IMG/VR virus record: IMGVR_UViG_3300028654_000194
DNA length: 20,000 nucleotides
From: an uncultured virus (IMG/VR IMGVR_UViG_3300028654_000194)
Taxonomy: Duplodnaviria > Heunggongvirae > Uroviricota > Caudoviricetes
Strand: one strand, 5' to 3'
How positions within the stretch are numbered: the first letter of the stretch is position 1; every line of letters starts with the position of its first letter. The notes below the pieces were generated by a model. It saw nothing but the letters and a program-made list of their open reading frames with translations. It was not told the DNA's origin and did no database searches. This document shows positions 1-15,547 of this stretch, piece after piece. Both the position numbers and the translations under genes were made by a program.

Positions 1-294
1 GAAATCGTCACCGTGCCACTTGTTCGTTTTGGTGGTGACGATCTTGACGCGGATCAGCGAACGCCTGTGCTTGCCGCTTACGACAGTGCAGATCACTTCA
101 CCCTTCGGTGCGCCATAGCCCTGTTCGATCAAGGCTGTGAACACCGGGAAGGATTGCAGCTTGTCGATCTTGCGCTTGACGCCATCGACAGATGGTGCGC
201 GCACTGTCTCACTGTTCAGCGTGGCTTCGAACTTCGCTGTCTTCGCGTTGAACGTGATCGCGACATCGCGGTACGTCTGTTTGAACTCATCCAT
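1..294 (-). CDS. Hypothetical phage early protein (partial, runs off the window)
   Basis: Own translation from ATG at 294 (MDEFKQTYRDVAITFNAKTAKFEATL...) is open to position 1. It is preceded by ACAGGAGA and repeat copy 1. Not in the ORF track. Confidence 0.75.
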   Translation of the reverse strand, partial: MDEFKQTYRDVAITFNAKTAKFEATLNSETVRAPSVDGVKRKIDKLQSFPVFTALIEQGYGAPKGEVICTVVSGKHRRSLIRVKIVTTKTNKWHGDDF

Positions 295-300
295 TGCAGT

Positions 301-388
301 TCTCCTGTGCTGCGCCATCGCGCAGCGTTGTCGTGCAATCTTCTGATCGCACTGGATGCCAGCTTCCCATCAGGAAGCTGGACACCAC
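301..388 (-). repeat. Intergenic structured repeat, copy 1 (three hairpins + RBS)
   Basis: Minus strand: TGGTGT-CCAGCTTCC tgatg GGAAGCTGG-CATCCA-GTGCGATC agaa GATTGCAC-GACAAC-GCTGCGC gatg GCGCAGC-ACAGGAGA. Confidence 0.9.
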
Positions 389-399
389 TGCGTTCCTTT

Positions 400-1503
400 C
401 TACGACGCCATGTCCAAGATTTTGCCAGCCTTGCGTTCCAGTTCGACACGCTTGTCCTGAAACTGGATGCCACGTGCGAAGGCCGTGATGCCGGTGGCGA
501 TGTCCCACAGGTTCGACACACCGTCCTTCGTGCCCAGCGGACGACCTTCGTCCGTCTGGAAGGCCGACACGATGTTCTGTGCTTCGCGCTTGGTGAAACG
601 CTTGGCCAAGAACTCATCGATGTTGTCCACGCGCTTGGCACGCGCGTCCGTCACCGCCTTGACCACGCCAGCCGAAGATGAGTTGGCGTAGGCTTGGATC
701 GCAGGTGTGACTTCCTCGATCCACTTGTCAGGCGCAGACACCGTGTGGCGCACGGTGATCTGTTCGAAGTTGCATGCACCCCACACGATGCGGTTCATGC
801 AGGCGTAGTCGAACAGGAACGACGCCATGCCCAGCGTGCGATCACCGACTTCGCTGTTCCACACGAAGAACCCGCGTGCCAGCGCGCCGGACTGTCCGTC
901 GCGGCGGTTCGGGATTTCGATGCGGTTTTCCTCATCCGCAAGGAAGATGAACATGTCGCGATCACCGGCATACAGCGTGGTGTTCTGTTCGGTGATCGGC
1001 ACCTTCTTGCCGAACTCACCGGGGACCGTGAAGTCGCCAGTGATGCCATCGCCGTAGTGTTCAAGGATCGCCTTGGCCACGTCGCTGTTCCAGATGCGCC
1101 CGTAGTTCGGACCCGTCGCGGCAGCCAAGACCGGGCTGCCGTTCTGGCGAAGCAGCAGACCCACGTCCTGAATGTCGCGGTCGTAGCGCAGGCCGAAGTT
1201 CAGGGCGTCGGCTGCAATCGGCGCGGGCAACCCGCGCAGATAGCCCGCAGGTGCGTTTACAAGACGCGCCAACTGGCCGAACGCATGGTGCGTGGGGAAG
1301 AACCCGTTGCCTACCGGGCCGACCACCTGAAGGCCCTTGGCGTCGTTTTCAGTCGGCTGGATTTCAATCGACCGTGACGACACGACTGCGCCGCGCGACT
1401 GCTTGCGCATCTTCAGCGTGGCTTCATGCAAAGCCGTGACTGAAAGGAAGCGTTCATCAGCCGGACGCGAAGCCCACTGATGTGATGCTTGATAAAGCTG
1501 CAT
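400..1503 (-). CDS. DUF932-family phage/plasmid protein
   Basis: MQLYQASHQWASRPADERF..., LYAGDRDMFIFL, RGFFVWNSEVG, CMNRIVWG, VRHT resemble DUF932 proteins. Start moved to ATG 1503, 6 nt after AGGAGA; the track's upstream extension crosses the repeat and another gene. Confidence 0.75.
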   Translation of the reverse strand: MQLYQASHQWASRPADERFLSVTALHEATLKMRKQSRGAVVSSRSIEIQPTENDAKGLQVVGPVGNGFFPTHHAFGQLARLVNAPAGYLRGLPAPIAADALNFGLRYDRDIQDVGLLLRQNGSPVLAAATGPNYGRIWNSDVAKAILEHYGDGITGDFTVPGEFGKKVPITEQNTTLYAGDRDMFIFLADEENRIEIPNRRDGQSGALARGFFVWNSEVGDRTLGMASFLFDYACMNRIVWGACNFEQITVRHTVSAPDKWIEEVTPAIQAYANSSSAGVVKAVTDARAKRVDNIDEFLAKRFTKREAQNIVSAFQTDEGRPLGTKDGVSNLWDIATGITAFARGIQFQDKRVELERKAGKILDMAS

Positions 1504-1509
1504 TGTCAT

Positions 1510-1603
1510 TCTCCTTGTACCCAGCCATCGCTGGGCGGTTGCGTGCAATCTTGTGATCGCACTGGACGCCTGTCGCTTGCGCGACAGGACACCAGCAGGG
1601 TCA
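1510..1603 (-). repeat. Intergenic structured repeat, copy 2
   Basis: TGACCCTGCTGGTGT-CCTGTCGC gcaa GCGACAGG-CGTCCA-GTGCGATC acaa GATTGCAC-GCAACCG-CCCAGC gatg GCTGGG-TACAAGGAGA. Confidence 0.9.
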
Positions 1604-1604
1604 C

Positions 1605-1844
1605 TCACCAGTGCTTGAACGCCGGGCACCAGTGTGCGTGCCCGGATAAGCCACCGTTGCAGTCGCAGCGCGTGATGCGCATGTACTGCGGGTTGAACGT
1701 GGGCCATGTGGTGAAGAAACGTTCCATCGCATCGGCGCTGCTGTCGAAGCGCAGTTCACCGATGAAGGGAAGTTCCAGCGGCACCCAACGTGTCACCGGA
1801 TAGCCGCCATAGGTGCCGAACTTTTTCCACTGGATGACGACCAT
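1605..1844 (-). CDS. Hypothetical protein (79 aa, C-terminal CxC...HxxxC motif)
   Basis: ORF with GGAGG RBS, directly after the upstream gene's stop, ending at the edge of repeat copy 2. Confidence 0.65.
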   Translation of the reverse strand: MVVIQWKKFGTYGGYPVTRWVPLELPFIGELRFDSSADAMERFFTTWPTFNPQYMRITRCDCNGGLSGHAHWCPAFKHW

Positions 1845-1845
1845 A

Positions 1846-2067
1846 TCAGCGGCCTCCGCTTACGTAGTGGCTGCACAGGTCGAACAGTTGGTCGCGTTCC
1901 AGCGTTGCTACAACGCGGCGCACGCTTTCACCATCTTCGTACCACCCCTTCGCGTGCTTGAAGCCGGGGTCAGGGATGTGGCGTTCGGCGCAAGCGTGCG
2001 CCAGAAACCCCCACCACACCAAGAACTCGGTCGTGGCGCATGTCGCGTTCAGTTGTGAATTTGGCAT
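1846..2067 (-). CDS. Hypothetical protein (73 aa)
   Basis: ATG follows the AAGGAGA of repeat copy 3. Confidence 0.7.
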   Translation of the reverse strand: MPNSQLNATCATTEFLVWWGFLAHACAERHIPDPGFKHAKGWYEDGESVRRVVATLERDQLFDLCSHYVSGGR

Positions 2068-2073
2068 TGTCAG

Positions 2074-2167
2074 TCTCCTTGTGCGCCACCACCGTGGCGC
2101 GTTGTCGTGCGGTCTTGTGATCGCACTGGATGCCGGTCGTCTTCACGACCGGACACCAGCAGGGTCA
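2074..2167 (-). repeat. Intergenic structured repeat, copy 3
   Basis: TGACCCTGCTGGTGT-CCGGTCGT gaag ACGACCGG-CATCCA-GTGCGATC acaa GACCGCAC-GACAAC-GCGCCAC ggtg GTGGCGC-ACAAGGAGA. Positions 2068-2134 are identical to 2557-2623. Confidence 0.92.
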
Positions 2168-2557
2168 AAGGGAATTTTCAGCAACGCCGTGCTGTTCGAC
2201 GTAGTCCACGAAGTCGCCGGGGTACATCTTCTTCATCATCGCTTCGTTCAGGCCACCGATCTTCTTGAAACCGAACTGGGCGACAACGTGGAAACCGCGT
2301 GCGTCCTGCACGACATCGCCAACGGACAGCGAAGACATGCGGTCAACCAGCTTGCGAACCAGACTGCCACCGTTCCACAGGTTCAACATCTCGAAGGCGT
2401 GTTCCATGTCGTGGGCGTCCACGATGGCGACAGCGCGATACATGCCCGCCGTCAAAGCAAGCGCCACATCTTCCATCTTGCCGAAGCAGCGGATGTCGCG
2501 CGCGGTGTTAGACATAAGATGCACAGGCTTCATCTGCCAGATTGTGTAGTTCGTCAT
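2165..2557 (-). CDS. YodL-like domain protein
   Basis: Y..V.......ME.AF..LN ... MSSLSVGDVV ... GF pattern typical of YodL-like proteins; RBS supplied by repeat copy 4. Confidence 0.6.
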   Translation of the reverse strand: MTNYTIWQMKPVHLMSNTARDIRCFGKMEDVALALTAGMYRAVAIVDAHDMEHAFEMLNLWNGGSLVRKLVDRMSSLSVGDVVQDARGFHVVAQFGFKKIGGLNEAMMKKMYPGDFVDYVEQHGVAENSL

Positions 2558-2562
2558 GTCAG

Positions 2563-2656
2563 TCTCCTTGTGCGCCACCACCGTGGCGCGTTGTCGTGCG
2601 GTCTTGTGATCGCACTGGATGCCAGCCGCTTGCGCGGCTGGACACCAGCATGGTCA
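2563..2656 (-). repeat. Intergenic structured repeat, copy 4
   Basis: TGACCATGCTGGTGT-CCAGCCGC gcaa GCGGCTGG-CATCCA-GTGCGATC acaa GACCGCAC-GACAAC-GCGCCAC ggtg GTGGCGC-ACAAGGAGA. Confidence 0.92.
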
Positions 2657-2992
2657 GGCTGTGACCGTGAACTTCTTGTTGCGACGTGCGCGCTTCTCTG
2701 CGGCAGCGAAGTATTTTTCCATCGCGGCATGCGCGGCTTCGACTGTCTTGTGTTCGGTGCGGTTGAACGCGGGGCCGTACTTCTTGCCAGCGCGCAGCGC
2801 CCGCACCCACAACCAGATTGCATCGTCCGCGTTGTCGCGGTTCCAGTAGGCATGCTGTGCGTTTGTTTCTTCATGGTATTGCGTGCGAACGATCATCGCA
2901 TGCGCGCCAACCGCGCGACCGAAGTTGTCCTTCACCGCGAAGGTGCGATCTTCAGTGTGCAGCGTTTCGGATTTCGTTTCGTTGACCTTCAT
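2654..2992 (-). CDS. Hypothetical protein (112 aa), first gene of the leftward early operon
   Basis: ATG at 2992 (MKVNETKSE...) after GGAG; the longer track ORF would run through the hammerhead. Confidence 0.7.
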   Translation of the reverse strand: MKVNETKSETLHTEDRTFAVKDNFGRAVGAHAMIVRTQYHEETNAQHAYWNRDNADDAIWLWVRALRAGKKYGPAFNRTEHKTVEAAHAAMEKYFAAAEKRARRNKKFTVTA

Positions 2993-3005
2993 TGTCTTCT
3001 CCATA

Positions 3006-3021
3006 CTGCACCACCGTGCAG
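3006..3021 (-). promoter_or_regulatory. RBS-proximal hairpin (fifth, partial copy of the repeat)
   Basis: AACG-CTGCAC ggtg GTGCAG-TATGGAG has the same G(A/G)TG loop, C-G closing pair and position as hairpin 3 in copies 1-4. Confidence 0.75.
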
Positions 3022-3022
3022 C

Positions 3023-3084
3023 GTTCAGCGTTTCGATCAATACTGTGATCATCATCAGCACGACTGTTTGTCGTGGACGCTAAC
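3023..3084 (-). ncRNA. Type III hammerhead ribozyme
   Basis: GUUAGC-GUC|CACGAC aaaca GUCGUG (stem I)-CUGAUGA-U-GAUCA caguau UGAUC (stem II)-GAAAC GCUGAAC (stem III pairs with UUAGCGU). Complete core; predicted cleavage between 3076 and 3075. Confidence 0.9.
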
Positions 3085-3249
3085 TTCGACCCCATGCAGG
3101 CTTCCTGCTCTGGCGCTACTGACCCTCATCGCGTGCTACGAACATCCGCCTTCACATCTGGCTAACGTCCGCATCCCGACTTGGGCGGGTCCGATTTTCC
3201 CGCCACCGTCACTTGACCGGGGGAACCACCGGGGACCACCCGGCACAAC

Positions 3250-3375
3250 GCAAATAGATCAAAAAACAGGGGCGCTGTAAATACGAGAAACAGGGGGTTT
3301 CGTATTTATTTTTGGGAGATTTTTGGCGGGAAAGCTGGGTTTTTACAGGGGGGTTCAAATACGAGGGTTTCCGAT
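3250..3375. promoter_or_regulatory. Divergent control region with operator-like repeats
   Basis: AT-rich gap between divergent operons. Inverted repeat TAAATACG (3278-3285)/CGTATTTA (3301-3308), second AAATACGAG at 3357-3365, three CAGGGG copies, candidate leftward TTTACA..CTATTT promoter. Confidence 0.55.
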
Positions 3376-3413
3376 ACCTTGTCGCCAGCGCAAATCACCG
3401 CTTTTCTTCGCAC

Positions 3414-3611
3414 ATGAAATGGCACCCGGAAGACCGCGCGCTGGCGCTGCATCTCTACGCGCAAGGCATGTCTGCATCGCGCATCAGCGCGCGCACCGGC
3501 AAGTCGCGCAACGCGATCATCGGTCTTGCGCATCGCGCTGGTATCAAACACGGCAACGCAATGGTCGCGAAGCTTGAAGAACGCGTTGCTGCGTTACGTA
3601 TCGCGCCATGA
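3414..3611 (+). CDS. GcrA-like N-terminal HTH protein (65 aa)
   Basis: MKWHPEDRALALHLYAQGMSASRISARTGKSRNAIIGLAHRAGI follows the GcrA N-terminal pattern W.......L..L...G.SAS.IA..LG..RNAVIG..HR.GL. Confidence 0.75.
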   Translation: MKWHPEDRALALHLYAQGMSASRISARTGKSRNAIIGLAHRAGIKHGNAMVAKLEERVAALRIAP

Positions 3612-3763
3612 ACATGTTCGCTGCTGCGCGCGATGCGGTGATTGCAGCAGCACGCGTTGTCGATCAGGTTTTTCCTGTCGCGCAGTATCACTGCATCGAT
3701 GATCTGAGTGCAGCACTGCGCGAATACGATGCTGCGAAGAAAGCGAAGAAGTGGAATGACTGA
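3608..3763 (+). CDS. Hypothetical protein (51 aa)
   Basis: MNMFAAARDAVIAAARVVDQ...KKWND*. ATGA overlap with the upstream gene and overlap with the next start; below the track cutoff. Confidence 0.55.
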   Translation: MNMFAAARDAVIAAARVVDQVFPVAQYHCIDDLSAALREYDAAKKAKKWND

Positions 3764-4136
3764 GTGCGACATCCCCGATGTCGATCCGCCCGGTCGTATC
3801 TACTGCGATCACACGCTGGTCATCTACGCCGTGGTCGATCCGCAGGATACATTCTTCACGAAGTGGAAGTGGCACATCAACGTTCCGCACAACAAGCGCA
3901 ACGGAAAGAAAAAGTATTTCAGGCGTTCGCGCAGTCGTGGGGGCGTTTACAAGTCGCCGCTATATCTTCACGTGGAGATTATGAAGCGCACCGGCATCGA
4001 ACCGCCGACCAAGAAGCACAAGCTGGTCGATCACATCGACGGCAACGAATGGAACTGCCGCCGCAGCAATCTGCGCTGGGCGACGCATAGAGAGAACCGG
4101 CACAACATCAACCACGGAGGCGCTTACCTTGTTTGA
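3756..4136 (+). CDS. Free-standing HNH endonuclease (HNH_3-like)
   Basis: YLHVEIM...VDHIDGNEWNCRRSNLRWATHREN motif. Confidence 0.85.
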   Translation: MTECDIPDVDPPGRIYCDHTLVIYAVVDPQDTFFTKWKWHINVPHNKRNGKKKYFRRSRSRGGVYKSPLYLHVEIMKRTGIEPPTKKHKLVDHIDGNEWNCRRSNLRWATHRENRHNINHGGAYLV

Positions 4137-13711: not shown

Positions 13712-13897
13712 ATGACAGTTGGCGATGTCCCGGTGTGCCTGACATGCGGTCAGTACATTTACAGCGTTCCACATCGCTGCGGGGAGCGCCCCGGCTTCGT
13801 GTCAAACGCGATGGGCTGCATCTGCCCGCCCGGTTCCGAGCGCACATGCCAAGGCGCATTGTGCCCACGCCGATCTTTCTCCCTACCGATCACGTAA
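13712..13897 (+). CDS. Hypothetical Cys-rich protein (61 aa)
   Basis: AGGAG RBS; CLTCG...HRC...CICP...C....CP. Confidence 0.6.
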   Translation: MTVGDVPVCLTCGQYIYSVPHRCGERPGFVSNAMGCICPPGSERTCQGALCPRRSFSLPIT

Positions 13898-13911
13898 AGC
13901 TAGGAGGCCCT

Positions 13912-14229
13912 GTGGACGCGATAGAGAAAATCCGCGCACGTCGCGAAGCGATCAACGGCGCACCTTGGCGCTATGAAAAGCGCGGGCAGATGGTCTTCGG
14001 GTTTTCGGTCGGAGGCTGCAACAAGGAACTGTCAGACTATCGCGTTGCCGACATCCGCGGCTGGGGCCACCTTCAGTACATGGGCGAGACACGAGGCGAC
14101 GGGAAGGCGCAGGCAATGCAGGATGCCAACGGCGAGTTTATTGCTCATGCCCCGCAGGACATCGATGTGTTGCTGGCTGAAATTGATCTGCTTCGCGCAT
14201 CATTGTCGTCACCCCTTGAGAGCAGATAG
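13912..14229 (+). CDS. Ead/Ea22-like phage protein
   Basis: AGGAGG-GTG start; IRARREA..GAPW...ANGEFIAHAPQDIDVLLAEI pattern. Confidence 0.6.
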   Translation: MDAIEKIRARREAINGAPWRYEKRGQMVFGFSVGGCNKELSDYRVADIRGWGHLQYMGETRGDGKAQAMQDANGEFIAHAPQDIDVLLAEIDLLRASLSSPLESR

Positions 14230-14238
14230 GAGCCGGAC

Positions 14239-14493
14239 GTGACCACAACTCGCATTCAACTTCTCGGGTGGCTTGAACATTGCGAGCGCGAGCATCCGGG
14301 CAAAGGCACACCCATCCCGACATGGCTCTGCTCGATGGACGCGCTCTATGATGAAGTCGGGCGCGGCACCGTCGAGGAGATTGGTATCCAGCCGATTGTT
14401 CCGCGCATGGGAATGGTATCGACCATCTACGGACTCACCGACAAAGGCCGTCAGGAATTTTATTCATCTCTGCCGACACCGGCAGACGTTTAA
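14239..14493 (+). CDS. Hypothetical protein, possible winged helix (84 aa)
   Basis: AGGAG RBS; ...YGLTDKGR wing-like motif. Confidence 0.6.
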   Translation: MTTTRIQLLGWLEHCEREHPGKGTPIPTWLCSMDALYDEVGRGTVEEIGIQPIVPRMGMVSTIYGLTDKGRQEFYSSLPTPADV

Positions 14494-14704
14494 GAGGAGC
14501 GGATCGTGGAAAACCGATGGGCATTCGAGGACTACAGTTACCCGCGAACTGGTTGTGCATGTTGTGAGCAGAATATCGGATGCCCGCCGGATGAGAAAAA
14601 CATCCATCACTGGACTGGTAGTGTGGCTGGGCGGTTATGGAAAAAGTGTACCCGCCGCGAAATAAGACAATCATTGCCGACACCGGCAAGCGTTTAAGAG
14701 GAGC
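14471..14704 (+). repeat. 30-nt direct repeat pair (14471-14500 / 14675-14704) covering gene end, stop and RBS
   Basis: TGCCGACACCGGCA(GA/AG)CGTTTAAGAGGAGC, 28/30 identical; both genes end SLPTPAxV*. Confidence 0.9.
14506..14697 (+). CDS. Hypothetical protein (63 aa)
   Basis: GAGGAG RBS then GTG; flanked by the direct repeat. Confidence 0.55.
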   Translation: MENRWAFEDYSYPRTGCACCEQNIGCPPDEKNIHHWTGSVAGRLWKKCTRREIRQSLPTPASV

Positions 14705-14709
14705 ATCTA

Positions 14710-15027
14710 GTGCCGTCGCATCGCCGCGTTGCCAAACCAATCGACCCGCGCAAGGCACTCAACAGCGCCATTGCGATGGATGTTGGCAAGGAGATGGTCG
14801 CCTATCTTGAGGTAATGTACCCGGACGTATTCGACAAGATGAATGGCGGGTGCAAACTCTCGATCCGCAACCACATTCACAATGACATCATCGCGGCGAT
14901 GGAAATAGTCGGCGCGGCGAACCATGTAGAGCGTCTCAAGGAACAGGCAGACTTTCGTCGCCAGTGGGTTGCTGCCTATCGTGGCATGAGACGCAAGAAG
15001 CTTGTCGCTACCGGCGACGGAAAGTAG
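14710..15027 (+). CDS. Hypothetical protein (105 aa)
   Basis: GAGGAG RBS then GTG; protein-like composition. Confidence 0.7.
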   Translation: MPSHRRVAKPIDPRKALNSAIAMDVGKEMVAYLEVMYPDVFDKMNGGCKLSIRNHIHNDIIAAMEIVGAANHVERLKEQADFRRQWVAAYRGMRRKKLVATGDGK

Positions 15028-15039
15028 GGAGCGATTGAC

Positions 15040-15325: not shown

Positions 15326-15535
15326 GTGGAGCGAGAATGGAAGTGCGGTGAATGTGGGGAATGGGTCTCCACTAAATTCATGCGCCATCACCACCTCTCG
15401 CAACCCGCCCCAAGAGTGTCGTTCGATGAGCCAGAGAACACCATGACGTTCGAGGCCACCAGCAATATGACTGTCTACACTCGAAAGCACGAAGATCCGG
15501 TTCGCAATGTTGTCATTACCGGCGACGGAAAGTAG
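15326..15535 (+). CDS. Hypothetical protein (69 aa, CxxC...HHH)
   Basis: GAGGAGG RBS then GTG. Confidence 0.6.
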   Translation: MEREWKCGECGEWVSTKFMRHHHLSQPAPRVSFDEPENTMTFEATSNMTVYTRKHEDPVRNVVITGDGK

Positions 15536-15547
15536 GGAGCGCTTGGA

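What the first reader, a model, noticed from the sequence alone, without database searches (positions are those of the whole stretch)
301..2656. Four-copy covarying three-hairpin RNA motif between early genes: candidate new processing RNA or ribozyme
Seen: four intergenic spacers (301-388, 1510-1603, 2074-2167, 2563-2656) share one minus-strand design, UGGUGU-CC[stem-loop]GG-CRUCCA-GUGCGAUC asaa GAYYGCAC-G(A)CAAC-[stem, GRUG loop]-RBS-AUG. The apical stem of hairpin 1 differs completely in every copy but always pairs (CCAGCUUCC/GGAAGCUGG, CCUGUCGC/GCGACAGG, CCGGUCGU/ACGACCGG, CCAGCCGC/GCGGCUGG), and two copies have a GNRA loop (GCAA). Hairpin 3 also covaries (GCUGCGC, CCCAGC, GCGCCAC) around a conserved loop. 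The bulged base UGGUGUCC/GGCRUCCA is conserved. None has a U-tract, so they are not terminators. Inference: structure and specific bulge nucleotides are under selection at the RNA level. The first gene has a hammerhead in the slot occupied here by hairpins 1+2, so the motif may be functionally equivalent: an unrecognised self-cleaving RNA, an RNase III-type site as between T7 early genes, or a put-like antiterminator. I do not recognise it as a known family.
Basis: partly seen in the sequence, partly recalled or inferred. Interest (0 to 1): 0.88.

Follow-up and report, generated by a model that had tools for sequence, protein, structure and literature searches.

The report
Repeated three-hairpin RNA spacer between phage genes
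An uncultured soil phage separates the genes of one operon with four copies of a folded RNA spacer that is in no RNA database, and puts a probable hammerhead ribozyme ahead of the first gene, so the spacer probably helps cut, protect or translate the message gene by gene.

Summary
Four minus-strand spacers (300-400, 1510-1607, 2074-2171, 2563-2660) share one design: H1 (13 bp, two single-U bulges, variable apex), H2 (8 bp, abutting H1), a GACAAC linker, H3 (7 bp, GRUG loop), then SD and start. 110 of 112 pair cells are standard pairs, and 9 of 28 pairs show compensatory changes. Rfam has no match.

At 3083-3025 (minus) lies a complete type III core, and a natural variant carries three compensatory changes in stem II. 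Rfam does not call it.

The motif is lineage-restricted. No full copy turned up in any collection searched. Two related phage lineages share only a backbone without H2. Metagenome contigs carry the element next to unrelated sequence, and some lack H2.

Best reading (about 0.45): an intercistronic RNA module for processing, stabilising and RBS insulation, cut by an endonuclease. It parallels T7 RNase III sites and prophage hammerhead arrays. A new ribozyme is unlikely (about 0.07) but not excluded. Cleavage is untested.

The parts
2563..2660 (-). Copy c4, between gF and gE. The stop UGA (2656-2654) lies inside the conserved UGACC. H1 2616-2647, H2 2596-2615, linker 2590-2595, H3 2572-2589, SD 2564-2569, start 2555-2557.
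   Evidence: Model R1 hit at 115 bits. Alignment, fold.
2074..2171 (-). Copy c3, between gE and gD. H1 2127-2158, H2 2107-2126, linker 2101-2106, H3 2083-2100, SD 2075-2080, start 2065-2067. Its 3' 67 nt are identical to c4.
   Evidence: R1 hit at 114 bits..
1510..1607 (-). Copy c2, between gC and gB. H1 1563-1594 (one U-G pair), H2 1543-1562, linker GCAACC 1537-1542, H3 1519-1536 (one G-U pair), SD 1511-1516, start 1501-1503.
   Evidence: R1 hit at 108 bits..
300..400 (-). Copy c1, between gB and gA. H1 353-387 (9-bp apex), H2 333-352 (AGAA loop), linker 327-332, H3 309-326, SD 302-306, start 292-294.
   Evidence: R1 hit at 94 bits..
3025..3083 (-). Probable type III hammerhead in the leader of gF. 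Stem III 3077-3083 with 3025-3031; GUC with cleavage after C3076; stem I hairpin 3059-3075; CUGAUGA 3052-3058; extra U 3051; stem II hairpin 3035-3050; GAAA 3031-3034.
   Evidence: My descriptor gave 1 hit in the window, 0 in 60 other loci and 0 in 300 random windows. Variant contigs in runs X6 and X7 change both sides of 3 of 5 stem II pairs and leave the core unchanged. Stems checked. Rfam gives no hammerhead hit.
3005..3022 (-). H3-type hairpin of the leader (GCUGCAC GGUG GUGCAGU). It is preceded by AAC and followed by SD GGAG (2999-3002) and the gF start (2990-2992).
   Evidence: Folds. Pairs (6 Watson-Crick, 1 G-U). Aligned with the other H3 copies.
2654..2992 (-). gF, 112 aa, no family match. 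One variant contig lacks it.
   Evidence: Joint 2656->3006 in run X7.
2165..2557 (-). gE, 130 aa, weak full-length YodL-like match (E 0.2, below threshold).
1605..2067 (-). gD (1846-2067, 73 aa) and gC (1605-1844, 79 aa; weak DUF982 match, E 0.04). The two are coupled, with the start 1 nt after the stop and no motif between them.
400..1503 (-). gB, 367 aa, phrog_1362. Weak DUF932 match. Relatives in other phages are annotated DUF932.
1..294 (-). gA, at least 97 aa, running off the window. No family match.

Best explanation
The element is a cis-acting RNA module in a polycistronic phage message. It marks each gene junction for end formation and protection. H1 is a strong GC-rich hairpin that starts 6-12 nt after the stop codon. 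I take it to be the recognition and cut site of a structure-specific endonuclease, most simply host RNase III cutting near the 3'-side bulged U, which lies 10-11 bp below the loop. H1 would then remain as a 3' cap on the upstream message. H2 and H3 would stay at the new 5' end: H2 as a 5' protective hairpin, H3 to keep the Shine-Dalgarno sequence free of upstream pairing. The first gene reaches the same result with a hammerhead in place of H1+H2.

Shown: the four copies, their fold, the covariation, the gene-strand bias, the hammerhead-like element in the equivalent slot, and the modular spread of the element.

Inferred: that cutting happens, which enzyme does it, where it cuts, and the roles of H2 and H3.
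For: - Structure is conserved through compensatory change in H1 and H3.
- G-U pairs favour the gene strand: 4 G-U and 2 mismatches, against 2 G-U and 4 mismatches on the other strand.
- The position is fixed between stop and SD at every junction except the coupled gD-gC pair.
- There is no promoter-like or terminator-like site at the copies.
- The leader has hammerhead + AAC + H3 + SD in the same order as H1-H2 + AAC + H3 + SD.
- That order matches the engineered RiboJ insulator, a hammerhead followed by a hairpin before the RBS (PMC6206723, passages).
- Prophages are known to flank single genes or short gene blocks with several hammerheads. This is read as processing of long transcripts, and one example flanks ardA (PMC3088659, passages).
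- Related phages carry their own multi-copy hairpins in the same operon. I looked at 6 of the 45 related loci; four show them (L016, L017, L023, L026) and L018 and L058 do not.
- A backbone GGYAUCCA..YAAC-hairpin-SD is shared with two lineages whose flanked protein is only 56-58% identical.
- H3-like 'hairpin then SD' units recur before other genes of this phage.
Against: - There are no RNA data. No RNA run is listed for this DNA, so no end has been seen.
- H1 is only 13 bp, short for a classical RNase III site. Stacking on H2 to about 21 bp is my own suggestion.
- The linker has no U, so it is a poor RNase E site (recalled consensus).
- A pure stabiliser role does not explain why H2 and the H1 base are invariant in sequence.
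- Covariation rests on four paralogous copies in one genome, two of them half identical, plus fragments. Template switching at quasi-palindromes could imitate compensatory change.
- The element could serve mainly at the DNA level.
Confidence: 0.45

Rival explanations
1. The element is a cassette-junction repeat whose main effect is at the DNA level. A shared spacer lets related phages swap, gain and lose single SD+ORF units by recombination, as PeSL promoter/terminator cassettes do in T4-type phages. On this view the hairpins are secondary or regulatory.
For: - Contigs from four metagenome runs align only to the element (about 322-360, 1558-1593, 2555-2656, 2588-2657) and continue into unrelated sequence on both sides.
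- One contig joins 2656 to 3006. That removes exactly SD+gF, from the end of the leader hairpin to the UGA of UGACC.
- The conserved block starts at the stop codon in c3 and c4.
- c3 and c4 share 67 identical nt.
- PeSL precedent: PMC4122927 (abstract).
Against: - Homologous recombination needs only sequence identity. It does not explain apical stems that differ yet always pair, nor the G-U bias toward the gene strand.
- There is no promoter-like site, so the element is not a PeSL.
- Contigs are low depth (2.6-6.3), and repeats can cause mis-joins.
- This reading is compatible with the best explanation rather than exclusive of it.
Confidence: 0.2
2. The element is an RNA operator for a sequence-specific protein, either phage or host. 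The protein would bind the invariant H1 base plus H2 and coordinately control translation, decay or read-through of all genes in the operon. Comparable cases are a RegA/RegB-type shut-off or an N/put-type antitermination signal.
For: - The H1 base (UGGUGUCC/GGCRUCCA with two bulged U) and H2 are invariant in sequence, while the neighbouring stems drift.
- GGYAUCCA is conserved even in L026 and L023, where I found no pairing partner for it by eye and the consensus fold gave none.
- Two abutting stem-loops with conserved bulges recall put RNA (recalled, not tested).
Against: - No candidate RNA-binding protein was identified. 5 of the 6 operon proteins have no family match at E<=0.001 in Pfam or PHROGs, and the sixth (gB) matches only phrog_1362, of unknown function.
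- Natural variants lack a foldable H2.
- No copy sits directly after the promoter region, where an antiterminator would be expected.
- The H2 palindrome is absent from the divergent control region. This also argues against a DNA operator.
Confidence: 0.15
3. H1+H2 is a new class of self-cleaving ribozyme that takes the place of hammerheads at the internal junctions.
For: - It occupies the slot that a hammerhead-like element holds before the first gene.
- Hammerhead arrays flanking prophage genes are known (PMC3088659). Association with such arrays is how newer ribozyme classes were found (recalled).
- It matches no known ribozyme model.
- The two bulged U and the H1/H2 junction are invariant.
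Against: - There is no multi-helix junction, no conserved internal loop and no pseudoknot.
- The H1 loop is not conserved.
- H2 is missing or truncated in natural variants and absent from L026 and L023.
- There are very few conserved unpaired nucleotides compared with every known class (recalled).
Confidence: 0.07

Closest known systems
RNase III processing sites between early genes of phage T7 (recalled textbook knowledge)
   Same: Structured hairpins with small irregularities lie at gene junctions of a polycistronic phage message. There are several copies per operon, all in the sense strand and without a U-tract. After cutting, a hairpin is left at the 3' end of the upstream message.
   Different: T7 sites are about two helical turns with an internal loop. 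H1 here is 13 bp with two 1-nt bulges and is followed by two further hairpins. Cutting has not been shown here.
Arrays of hammerhead ribozymes flanking single genes in prophages (Perreault et al. 2011, PMC3088659; passages read)
   Same: A self-cleaving or processing element sits at each gene junction of a phage operon of small genes of unknown or anti-restriction type. The leader here carries a hammerhead-like element. That paper also reports a hammerhead 13 nt before the first early ORF of haloviruses HF1/HF2.
   Different: Four of the five slots here hold a non-hammerhead three-hairpin element. The hammerhead candidate has an extra U between A9 and G10.1 and is not reported by Rfam models.
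RiboJ synthetic insulator: sTRSV hammerhead plus a 23-nt hairpin before the RBS (PMC6206723; passages read)
   Same: The leader here has the same order of parts: a type III hammerhead, then a short hairpin, then the SD. The internal copies keep the hairpin-SD part.
   Different: The element here is natural, not engineered. The internal copies replace the ribozyme with H1+H2.
PeSL promoter/terminator cassettes of T4-type phages (PMC4122927, abstract read; PMC2839356, search listing only)
   Same: Short conserved stem-loop cassettes lie between small variable genes and act as points of exchange between otherwise unrelated sequences.
   Different: A PeSL contains an early promoter. No promoter-like site was found here. 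The variable but paired stems here point to RNA-level selection.
Intercistronic stem-loops that stabilise upstream segments of bacterial operons, such as puf of Rhodobacter and REP elements (recalled)
   Same: GC-rich hairpins without a U-tract lie just after a stop codon inside an operon.
   Different: Those elements lack the fixed three-part design, the conserved bulges and the RBS-proximal hairpin.

Membership tests
Hammerhead ribozyme, type III (leader element 3025-3083) | Core CUGANGA ... GAAA, with an A15.1-U16.1 pair and a UH cleavage triplet | tested here: met
   CUGAUGA 3052-3058, GAAA 3031-3034 and GUC ending at 3076. One extra U (3051) lies between A9 and G10.1. A natural hammerhead with an extra A at that place is known (PMC1636495, passage).
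Hammerhead ribozyme, type III (leader element 3025-3083) | Three helices around the core, stems I and II closed by loops, supported by covariation | tested here: met
   Stems are 6, 5 and 7 bp. A variant lineage in 2 of the 4 runs laid changes both sides of 3 stem II pairs (3049/3036, 3047/3038, 3046/3039). It changes two loop bases, and its 1-nt deletion at 3026 still leaves stem III at 7 bp. No core base changes.
Hammerhead ribozyme, type III (leader element 3025-3083) | Score at or above Rfam's gathering threshold for a hammerhead model | tested here: not met
   No hammerhead family is listed at gathering score or at E<=10 on 3600, 171 or 73 nt.
Hammerhead ribozyme, type III (leader element 3025-3083) | Site-specific self-cleavage | not testable with these tools
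   Needs in vitro transcription or end mapping.
Known self-cleaving ribozyme classes (twister, twister-sister, pistol, hatchet, HDV-like, hairpin, hammerhead) for H1-H2-H3 | Match to the class covariance model | tested here: not met
   There are 0 matches at gathering score in the window. The 5 matches at E<=10 in 1-3600 are unrelated families, and none lies on the motif as such.
RNase III site of the T7 type | About 20 bp of helix interrupted by an internal loop or bulge | tested here: inconclusive
   H1 is 13 bp with two 1-nt bulges. H2 (8 bp) abuts it with 0 nt between, so a stacked 21 bp is possible but not shown.
RNase III site of the T7 type | Cleavage by RNase III | not testable with these tools
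   No RNA data.
Intrinsic terminator | GC-rich hairpin followed by a U-tract | tested here: not met
   None of the 5 terminator-like sites in 1-3700 is H1, H2 or H3 followed by a U-tract. One + strand site (2649-2669) only overlaps the upstream edge of c4.
PeSL cassette | Early promoter next to a stem-loop | tested here: not met
   0 sigma-70-like sites in 1-3700. Other promoter types are not covered by that scan.
Integron attC site | Paired RYYYAAC / GTTRRRY core sites at the base of the stem, with an integron integrase nearby | tested here: not met
   The base of H1 is UGGUGUCC/GGCRUCCA. No GTTRRRY partner for the linker AAC was seen by eye. No integrase was found among the 22 window proteins scanned. 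The attC consensus is recalled.
put-type antiterminator RNA (HK022) | Two adjoining stem-loops placed downstream of an early promoter | tested here: inconclusive
   Two abutting stem-loops are present. However, there are four copies at gene junctions and none directly after the control region at 3130-3412. The family features are recalled, and no model was on hand.
tRNA-like element | Cloverleaf detectable by ARAGORN | tested here: not met
   0 genes in the window.

The most novel reading that the evidence does not exclude
The invariant H1 base with its two bulged U, together with H2, is a new catalytic or enzyme-guiding RNA. It would do at internal gene junctions what the hammerhead does at the first. 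This phage would then be a natural case of two different RNA-cutting devices used interchangeably to cut an operon into single-gene messages.
Probability: 0.08. Interest if true: 0.85.

Novelty: new variant of a known kind. Interest (0 to 1): 0.58.

Why it matters
Phage operons of small genes of unknown or anti-defence type are known to be punctuated by hammerheads, but why is still open. Here a hammerhead-like element and an unrelated, uncatalogued three-hairpin element occupy equivalent slots in one operon. That gives a direct way to ask what the slot is for: end formation, 5'/3' protection or RBS insulation. It also lets one test whether a host nuclease site can stand in for a ribozyme.

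The leader is a natural counterpart of the engineered RiboJ insulator.

The same element also appears to mark the points where related phages exchange single genes, which links RNA processing signals to genome mosaicism.

Its narrow distribution limits its reach: one lineage, plus a partial backbone in two others.

Tried and rejected
**Rfam**
- No match for the motif at gathering score or at E<=10.
- No hammerhead model hit on the leader, even on 171 nt or 73 nt.
- 15 related viral loci gave only 2 tRNAs. 20 bacterial loci gave nothing.

**Search for homologues with model R1** (built from the 4 copies)
- Among 14 genome-contig loci and 1 viral locus found with an H2 pattern, none scored better than 20.6 bits, and those scores came from H2 alone.
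- Among 45 viral loci encoding gB relatives, there was 1 weak hit (L026, 26 bits).
- Among 51 metagenome loci found with an H1-base pattern, there were 2 weak chance-level hits.
- Among 15 viral loci found with a looser pattern, there were 2 H1-only look-alikes at 14-18 bits, which I take to be chance.
- Among 31 bacterial loci with gB homologues, there were 0 hits.

**Other searches**
- Hammerhead model R2 found no homologue in 46 other sources.
- gE and gF have no relatives in IMG/VR.
- Megablast of the whole window against cultured phages found no match.
- The nearest held virus record, G001, does not cover 1-3600.
- No RNA holder was listed for this DNA, so expression and RNA ends could not be examined.

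**Readings set aside**
- DNA operator: the H2 palindrome occurs only in the four copies.
- Promoter: none found.
- tRNA-like element: none.
- attC and sigma-54 or ECF promoter readings were checked by eye and do not fit all copies.
- A resemblance to the 3' end of 16S rRNA was dropped, because shared 6-7-mers are expected by chance.
- A consensus fold of the L026 copies was uninformative, because the alignment misplaced the hairpins.
Full report
**Context.** The window is part of an uncultured phage.
- It encodes a family A DNA polymerase, a DUF2800/PD-(D/E)XK nuclease, an SNF2-type helicase, a primase-like protein, an HNH endonuclease and a small GcrA-like HTH protein.
- Its DNA is held by rhizosphere metagenome runs.
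- No cultured phage matches it at the DNA level.
- The finding lies in a minus-strand operon that starts at a divergent control region (about 3130-3412). The order is gF (2992-2654), gE (2557-2165), gD-gC (2067-1605, coupled), gB (1503-400) and gA (294 to beyond the window).
- Only gB has a family match (phrog_1362). gB, gE and gC give sub-threshold hints to DUF932, YodL and DUF982. That the operon is 'early' is an inference from its position and these hints.

**The observation.**
- Four spacers share one design. The core pattern occurs 4 times against 0.01 expected.
- Each copy folds into three hairpins in series:
  - H1: 3 bp, a 3'-side bulged U, 2 bp, a 5'-side bulged U, then 8-9 bp and a variable loop.
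  - H2: 8 bp with an ACAA or AGAA loop, starting at the base next to H1.
  - A 6-nt linker ending in AAC (AACC in c2).
  - H3: 7 bp with a C-G closing pair and a GAUG or GGUG loop.
  - The SD follows 3-4 nt later.
- Pairing is strong. 110 of 112 pair cells are standard pairs. 9 of 28 pairs carry changes on both sides (5 in H1, 4 in H3, none in H2). 0 of 500 shuffles reach the observed score, and slid controls pair 24-46%.
- RNAalifold finds the same three hairpins and no helix joining the flanks.
- The gene strand has 4 G-U cells and 2 mismatches. The opposite strand would have 2 and 4. This is a modest argument for RNA of the gene sense.
- Limits: the structure was derived from these same sequences, the copies are paralogues in one genome, and c3 and c4 are identical over their 3' 67 nt.

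**Not a known family.**
- Rfam 15 gives nothing at gathering score for the window. Only five unrelated chance-level matches appear at E<=10 in 1-3600.
- There is no tRNA-like gene.
- There is no sigma-70-like promoter and no U-tract terminator at the copies.

**The hammerhead.** The leader of gF contains, on the minus strand 3083-3025:
- UUAGCGU, then C with cleavage after C3076.
- A 6-bp hairpin (stem I).
- CUGAUGA, then one extra U.
- A 5-bp hairpin (stem II).
- GAAA, then CGCUGA pairing back to the start (stem III, 7 bp).

This is the full type III topology and core.

- A descriptor I wrote from the standard rules finds this one site in the window. It finds none in 60 other loci and none in 300 random windows of the same composition. 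The descriptor was written after I had seen the site.
- Independent support comes from metagenome contigs of a related lineage in runs X6 and X7. Within 3025-3083 they differ at eight bases and one deletion.
  - Six changes are the two sides of three stem II pairs: A-U to G-C, C-G to U-A, A-U to C-G.
  - Two changes are in loops.
  - The deletion turns a G-U into an A-U and keeps stem III at 7 bp.
  - No core base changes.
  - Upstream of 3083 the same contigs differ freely.
- Against it: Rfam's hammerhead models report nothing, even on 73 nt at E<=10. I cannot explain this beyond the extra U.
- A natural hammerhead with an extra A at that position is documented and is moderately slower (PMC1636495, passage).
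- I put the hammerhead at about 0.85.
- After cleavage the message would begin with stem I. It would carry an 83-nt leader: ribozyme body, AAC, H3-type hairpin (3022-3005), SD.

**Equivalence of slots.** Aligned from the linker onward, the leader and the four copies share AAC, H3, SD and start. Upstream of AAC the leader has the hammerhead and the copies have H1+H2.
- Two literature precedents frame this.
  - Prophages often flank single genes or short blocks with several hammerheads. This is read as processing of long transcripts, and haloviruses HF1/HF2 have a hammerhead 13 nt before the first early ORF (PMC3088659, passages).
  - The engineered RiboJ insulator is a hammerhead followed by a hairpin before the RBS. 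The cut removes upstream context, and the hairpin is thought to stabilise the message and expose the RBS (PMC6206723, passages).

**Distribution.** The full motif was found nowhere else.
- Pattern scans of viral, genome and metagenome contigs, followed by the covariance model, gave no convincing hit.
- Of 45 viral loci encoding gB relatives (30-62% identity), only L026 scored, and weakly.
- 31 bacterial loci with gB homologues gave none.
- L026 and L023 (with its near-duplicates L024 and L047) do carry their own multi-copy spacers. These align with the window's as ACnGGYAUCCA - AC - nnYAAC - GCGGC hairpin - SD, without the 18-nt H2 insert.
- An HMM of this backbone finds only these lineages among 158 sequences.
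- I looked for repeats in 6 of the 45 related loci. L016 and L017 have quite different multi-copy hairpins in the same operon, while L018 and L058 show none of this kind.
- So structured spacers are common in this phage group, and the particular design is lineage-specific.

**Natural variants (Logan contigs at depth 2.6-6.3, seen only as tables).**
- Contigs align to the element alone and then run into unrelated sequence on both sides.
- One version keeps a c4-like H1 and has a different H3 that still pairs (GCUGCC GGUG GGCAGC), followed by another SD and gene.
- One version keeps H1 and GUGCGAUCA but lacks the 3' strand of H2.
- One version, seen in three runs, keeps the c2 H1 exactly and has a shortened H2 (GUGCG CUUG CGCAU).
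- One contig joins 2656 to 3006, removing SD+gF exactly.
- These observations show two things. The element is a module found next to different genes, and H2 is dispensable. The best-kept part across all versions is GGUGUCC - apical stem - GGCRUCCAGUGCG.

**Interpretation.**
- The fold, the gene-strand bias, the fixed place between stop and SD, and the hammerhead in the equivalent slot all point to an RNA-level role in making and protecting message ends and in insulating the RBS.
- I favour cutting by a structure-specific endonuclease at H1. The 3'-side bulged U lies 10-11 bp below the loop, a distance I recall as typical for RNase III hairpin substrates. H1 would then cap the upstream message, and H2/H3 would head the downstream one.
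- This is inference. No RNA ends were seen.
- The invariant sequence of the H1 base and H2, and the conserved GGYAUCCA in relatives where I found no partner for it, suggest a sequence-reading partner as well. I keep a protein-operator rival for that reason.
- The DNA-level cassette-exchange reading is supported by the variant contigs and is compatible with the RNA role.
- A new ribozyme is the boldest reading. It is disfavoured by the lack of any junction, internal loop or pseudoknot, and by H2-less natural versions. It is cheap to test.

**Verdict.** The element is a new, narrowly distributed variant of a known kind of thing, the structured intercistronic signals of phage operons. It comes with a probable hammerhead that current Rfam models miss.

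Noticed in passing
window 3025-3083 (-): A type III hammerhead-like element with a complete core and an extra U after A9, followed by a hairpin and the SD in a RiboJ-like order. Rfam models do not report it.
   Followed up: yes
window 14466-14500 and 14670-14704 (+); 13877-13912, 15002-15037 and 15510-15545 (+): Two further families of short 'hairpin then SD' repeats lie just before plus-strand genes (starts at 14506, 14710, 15040, 15548). 'Small hairpin before the RBS' therefore looks like a general habit of this phage.
   Followed up: partly
window 3240-3360: The divergent control region between the operon and the GcrA-like gene holds several CCCCTGT repeats and no sigma-70-like promoter. 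These may be operators or an unusual promoter type.
   Followed up: no
window 3414-3608 (+) and 3708-4136 (+): A small GcrA-like/HTH_23 protein (65 aa) is transcribed divergently from the operon, followed by an HNH endonuclease gene.
   Followed up: no
window 1558-1593 versus contigs of runs X6, X7 and X8: A contig shares the c2 H1 exactly but has other flanks. The 8-mer AUGGCAAG appears on both sides of the shared piece, which could be a target duplication of a mobile hairpin unit or could be chance (roughly 1 in 100 by my estimate).
   Followed up: no
window 2656/3006 joint in run X7: A related lineage lacks SD+gF. In it the leader hairpin is followed directly by UGACC-H1, then by a second copy of the leader-type hairpin. 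This may be a real rearrangement or an assembly mis-join at repeats.
   Followed up: no
L016 1577-1620, 1854-1897, 2392-2435, 6294-6337; L017 4916-4966, 7121-7171, 7767-7817: Related phages carry their own, unrelated multi-copy intergenic hairpins in the same operon. In L016 the inner stem varies but always pairs and sits directly before the SD.
   Followed up: partly
L058 6212-6712; L026 1805-1926: Tandem repeats occur in related viral loci: an 18-nt unit in about 21 overlapping registers, and a 31-nt unit in three copies.
   Followed up: no
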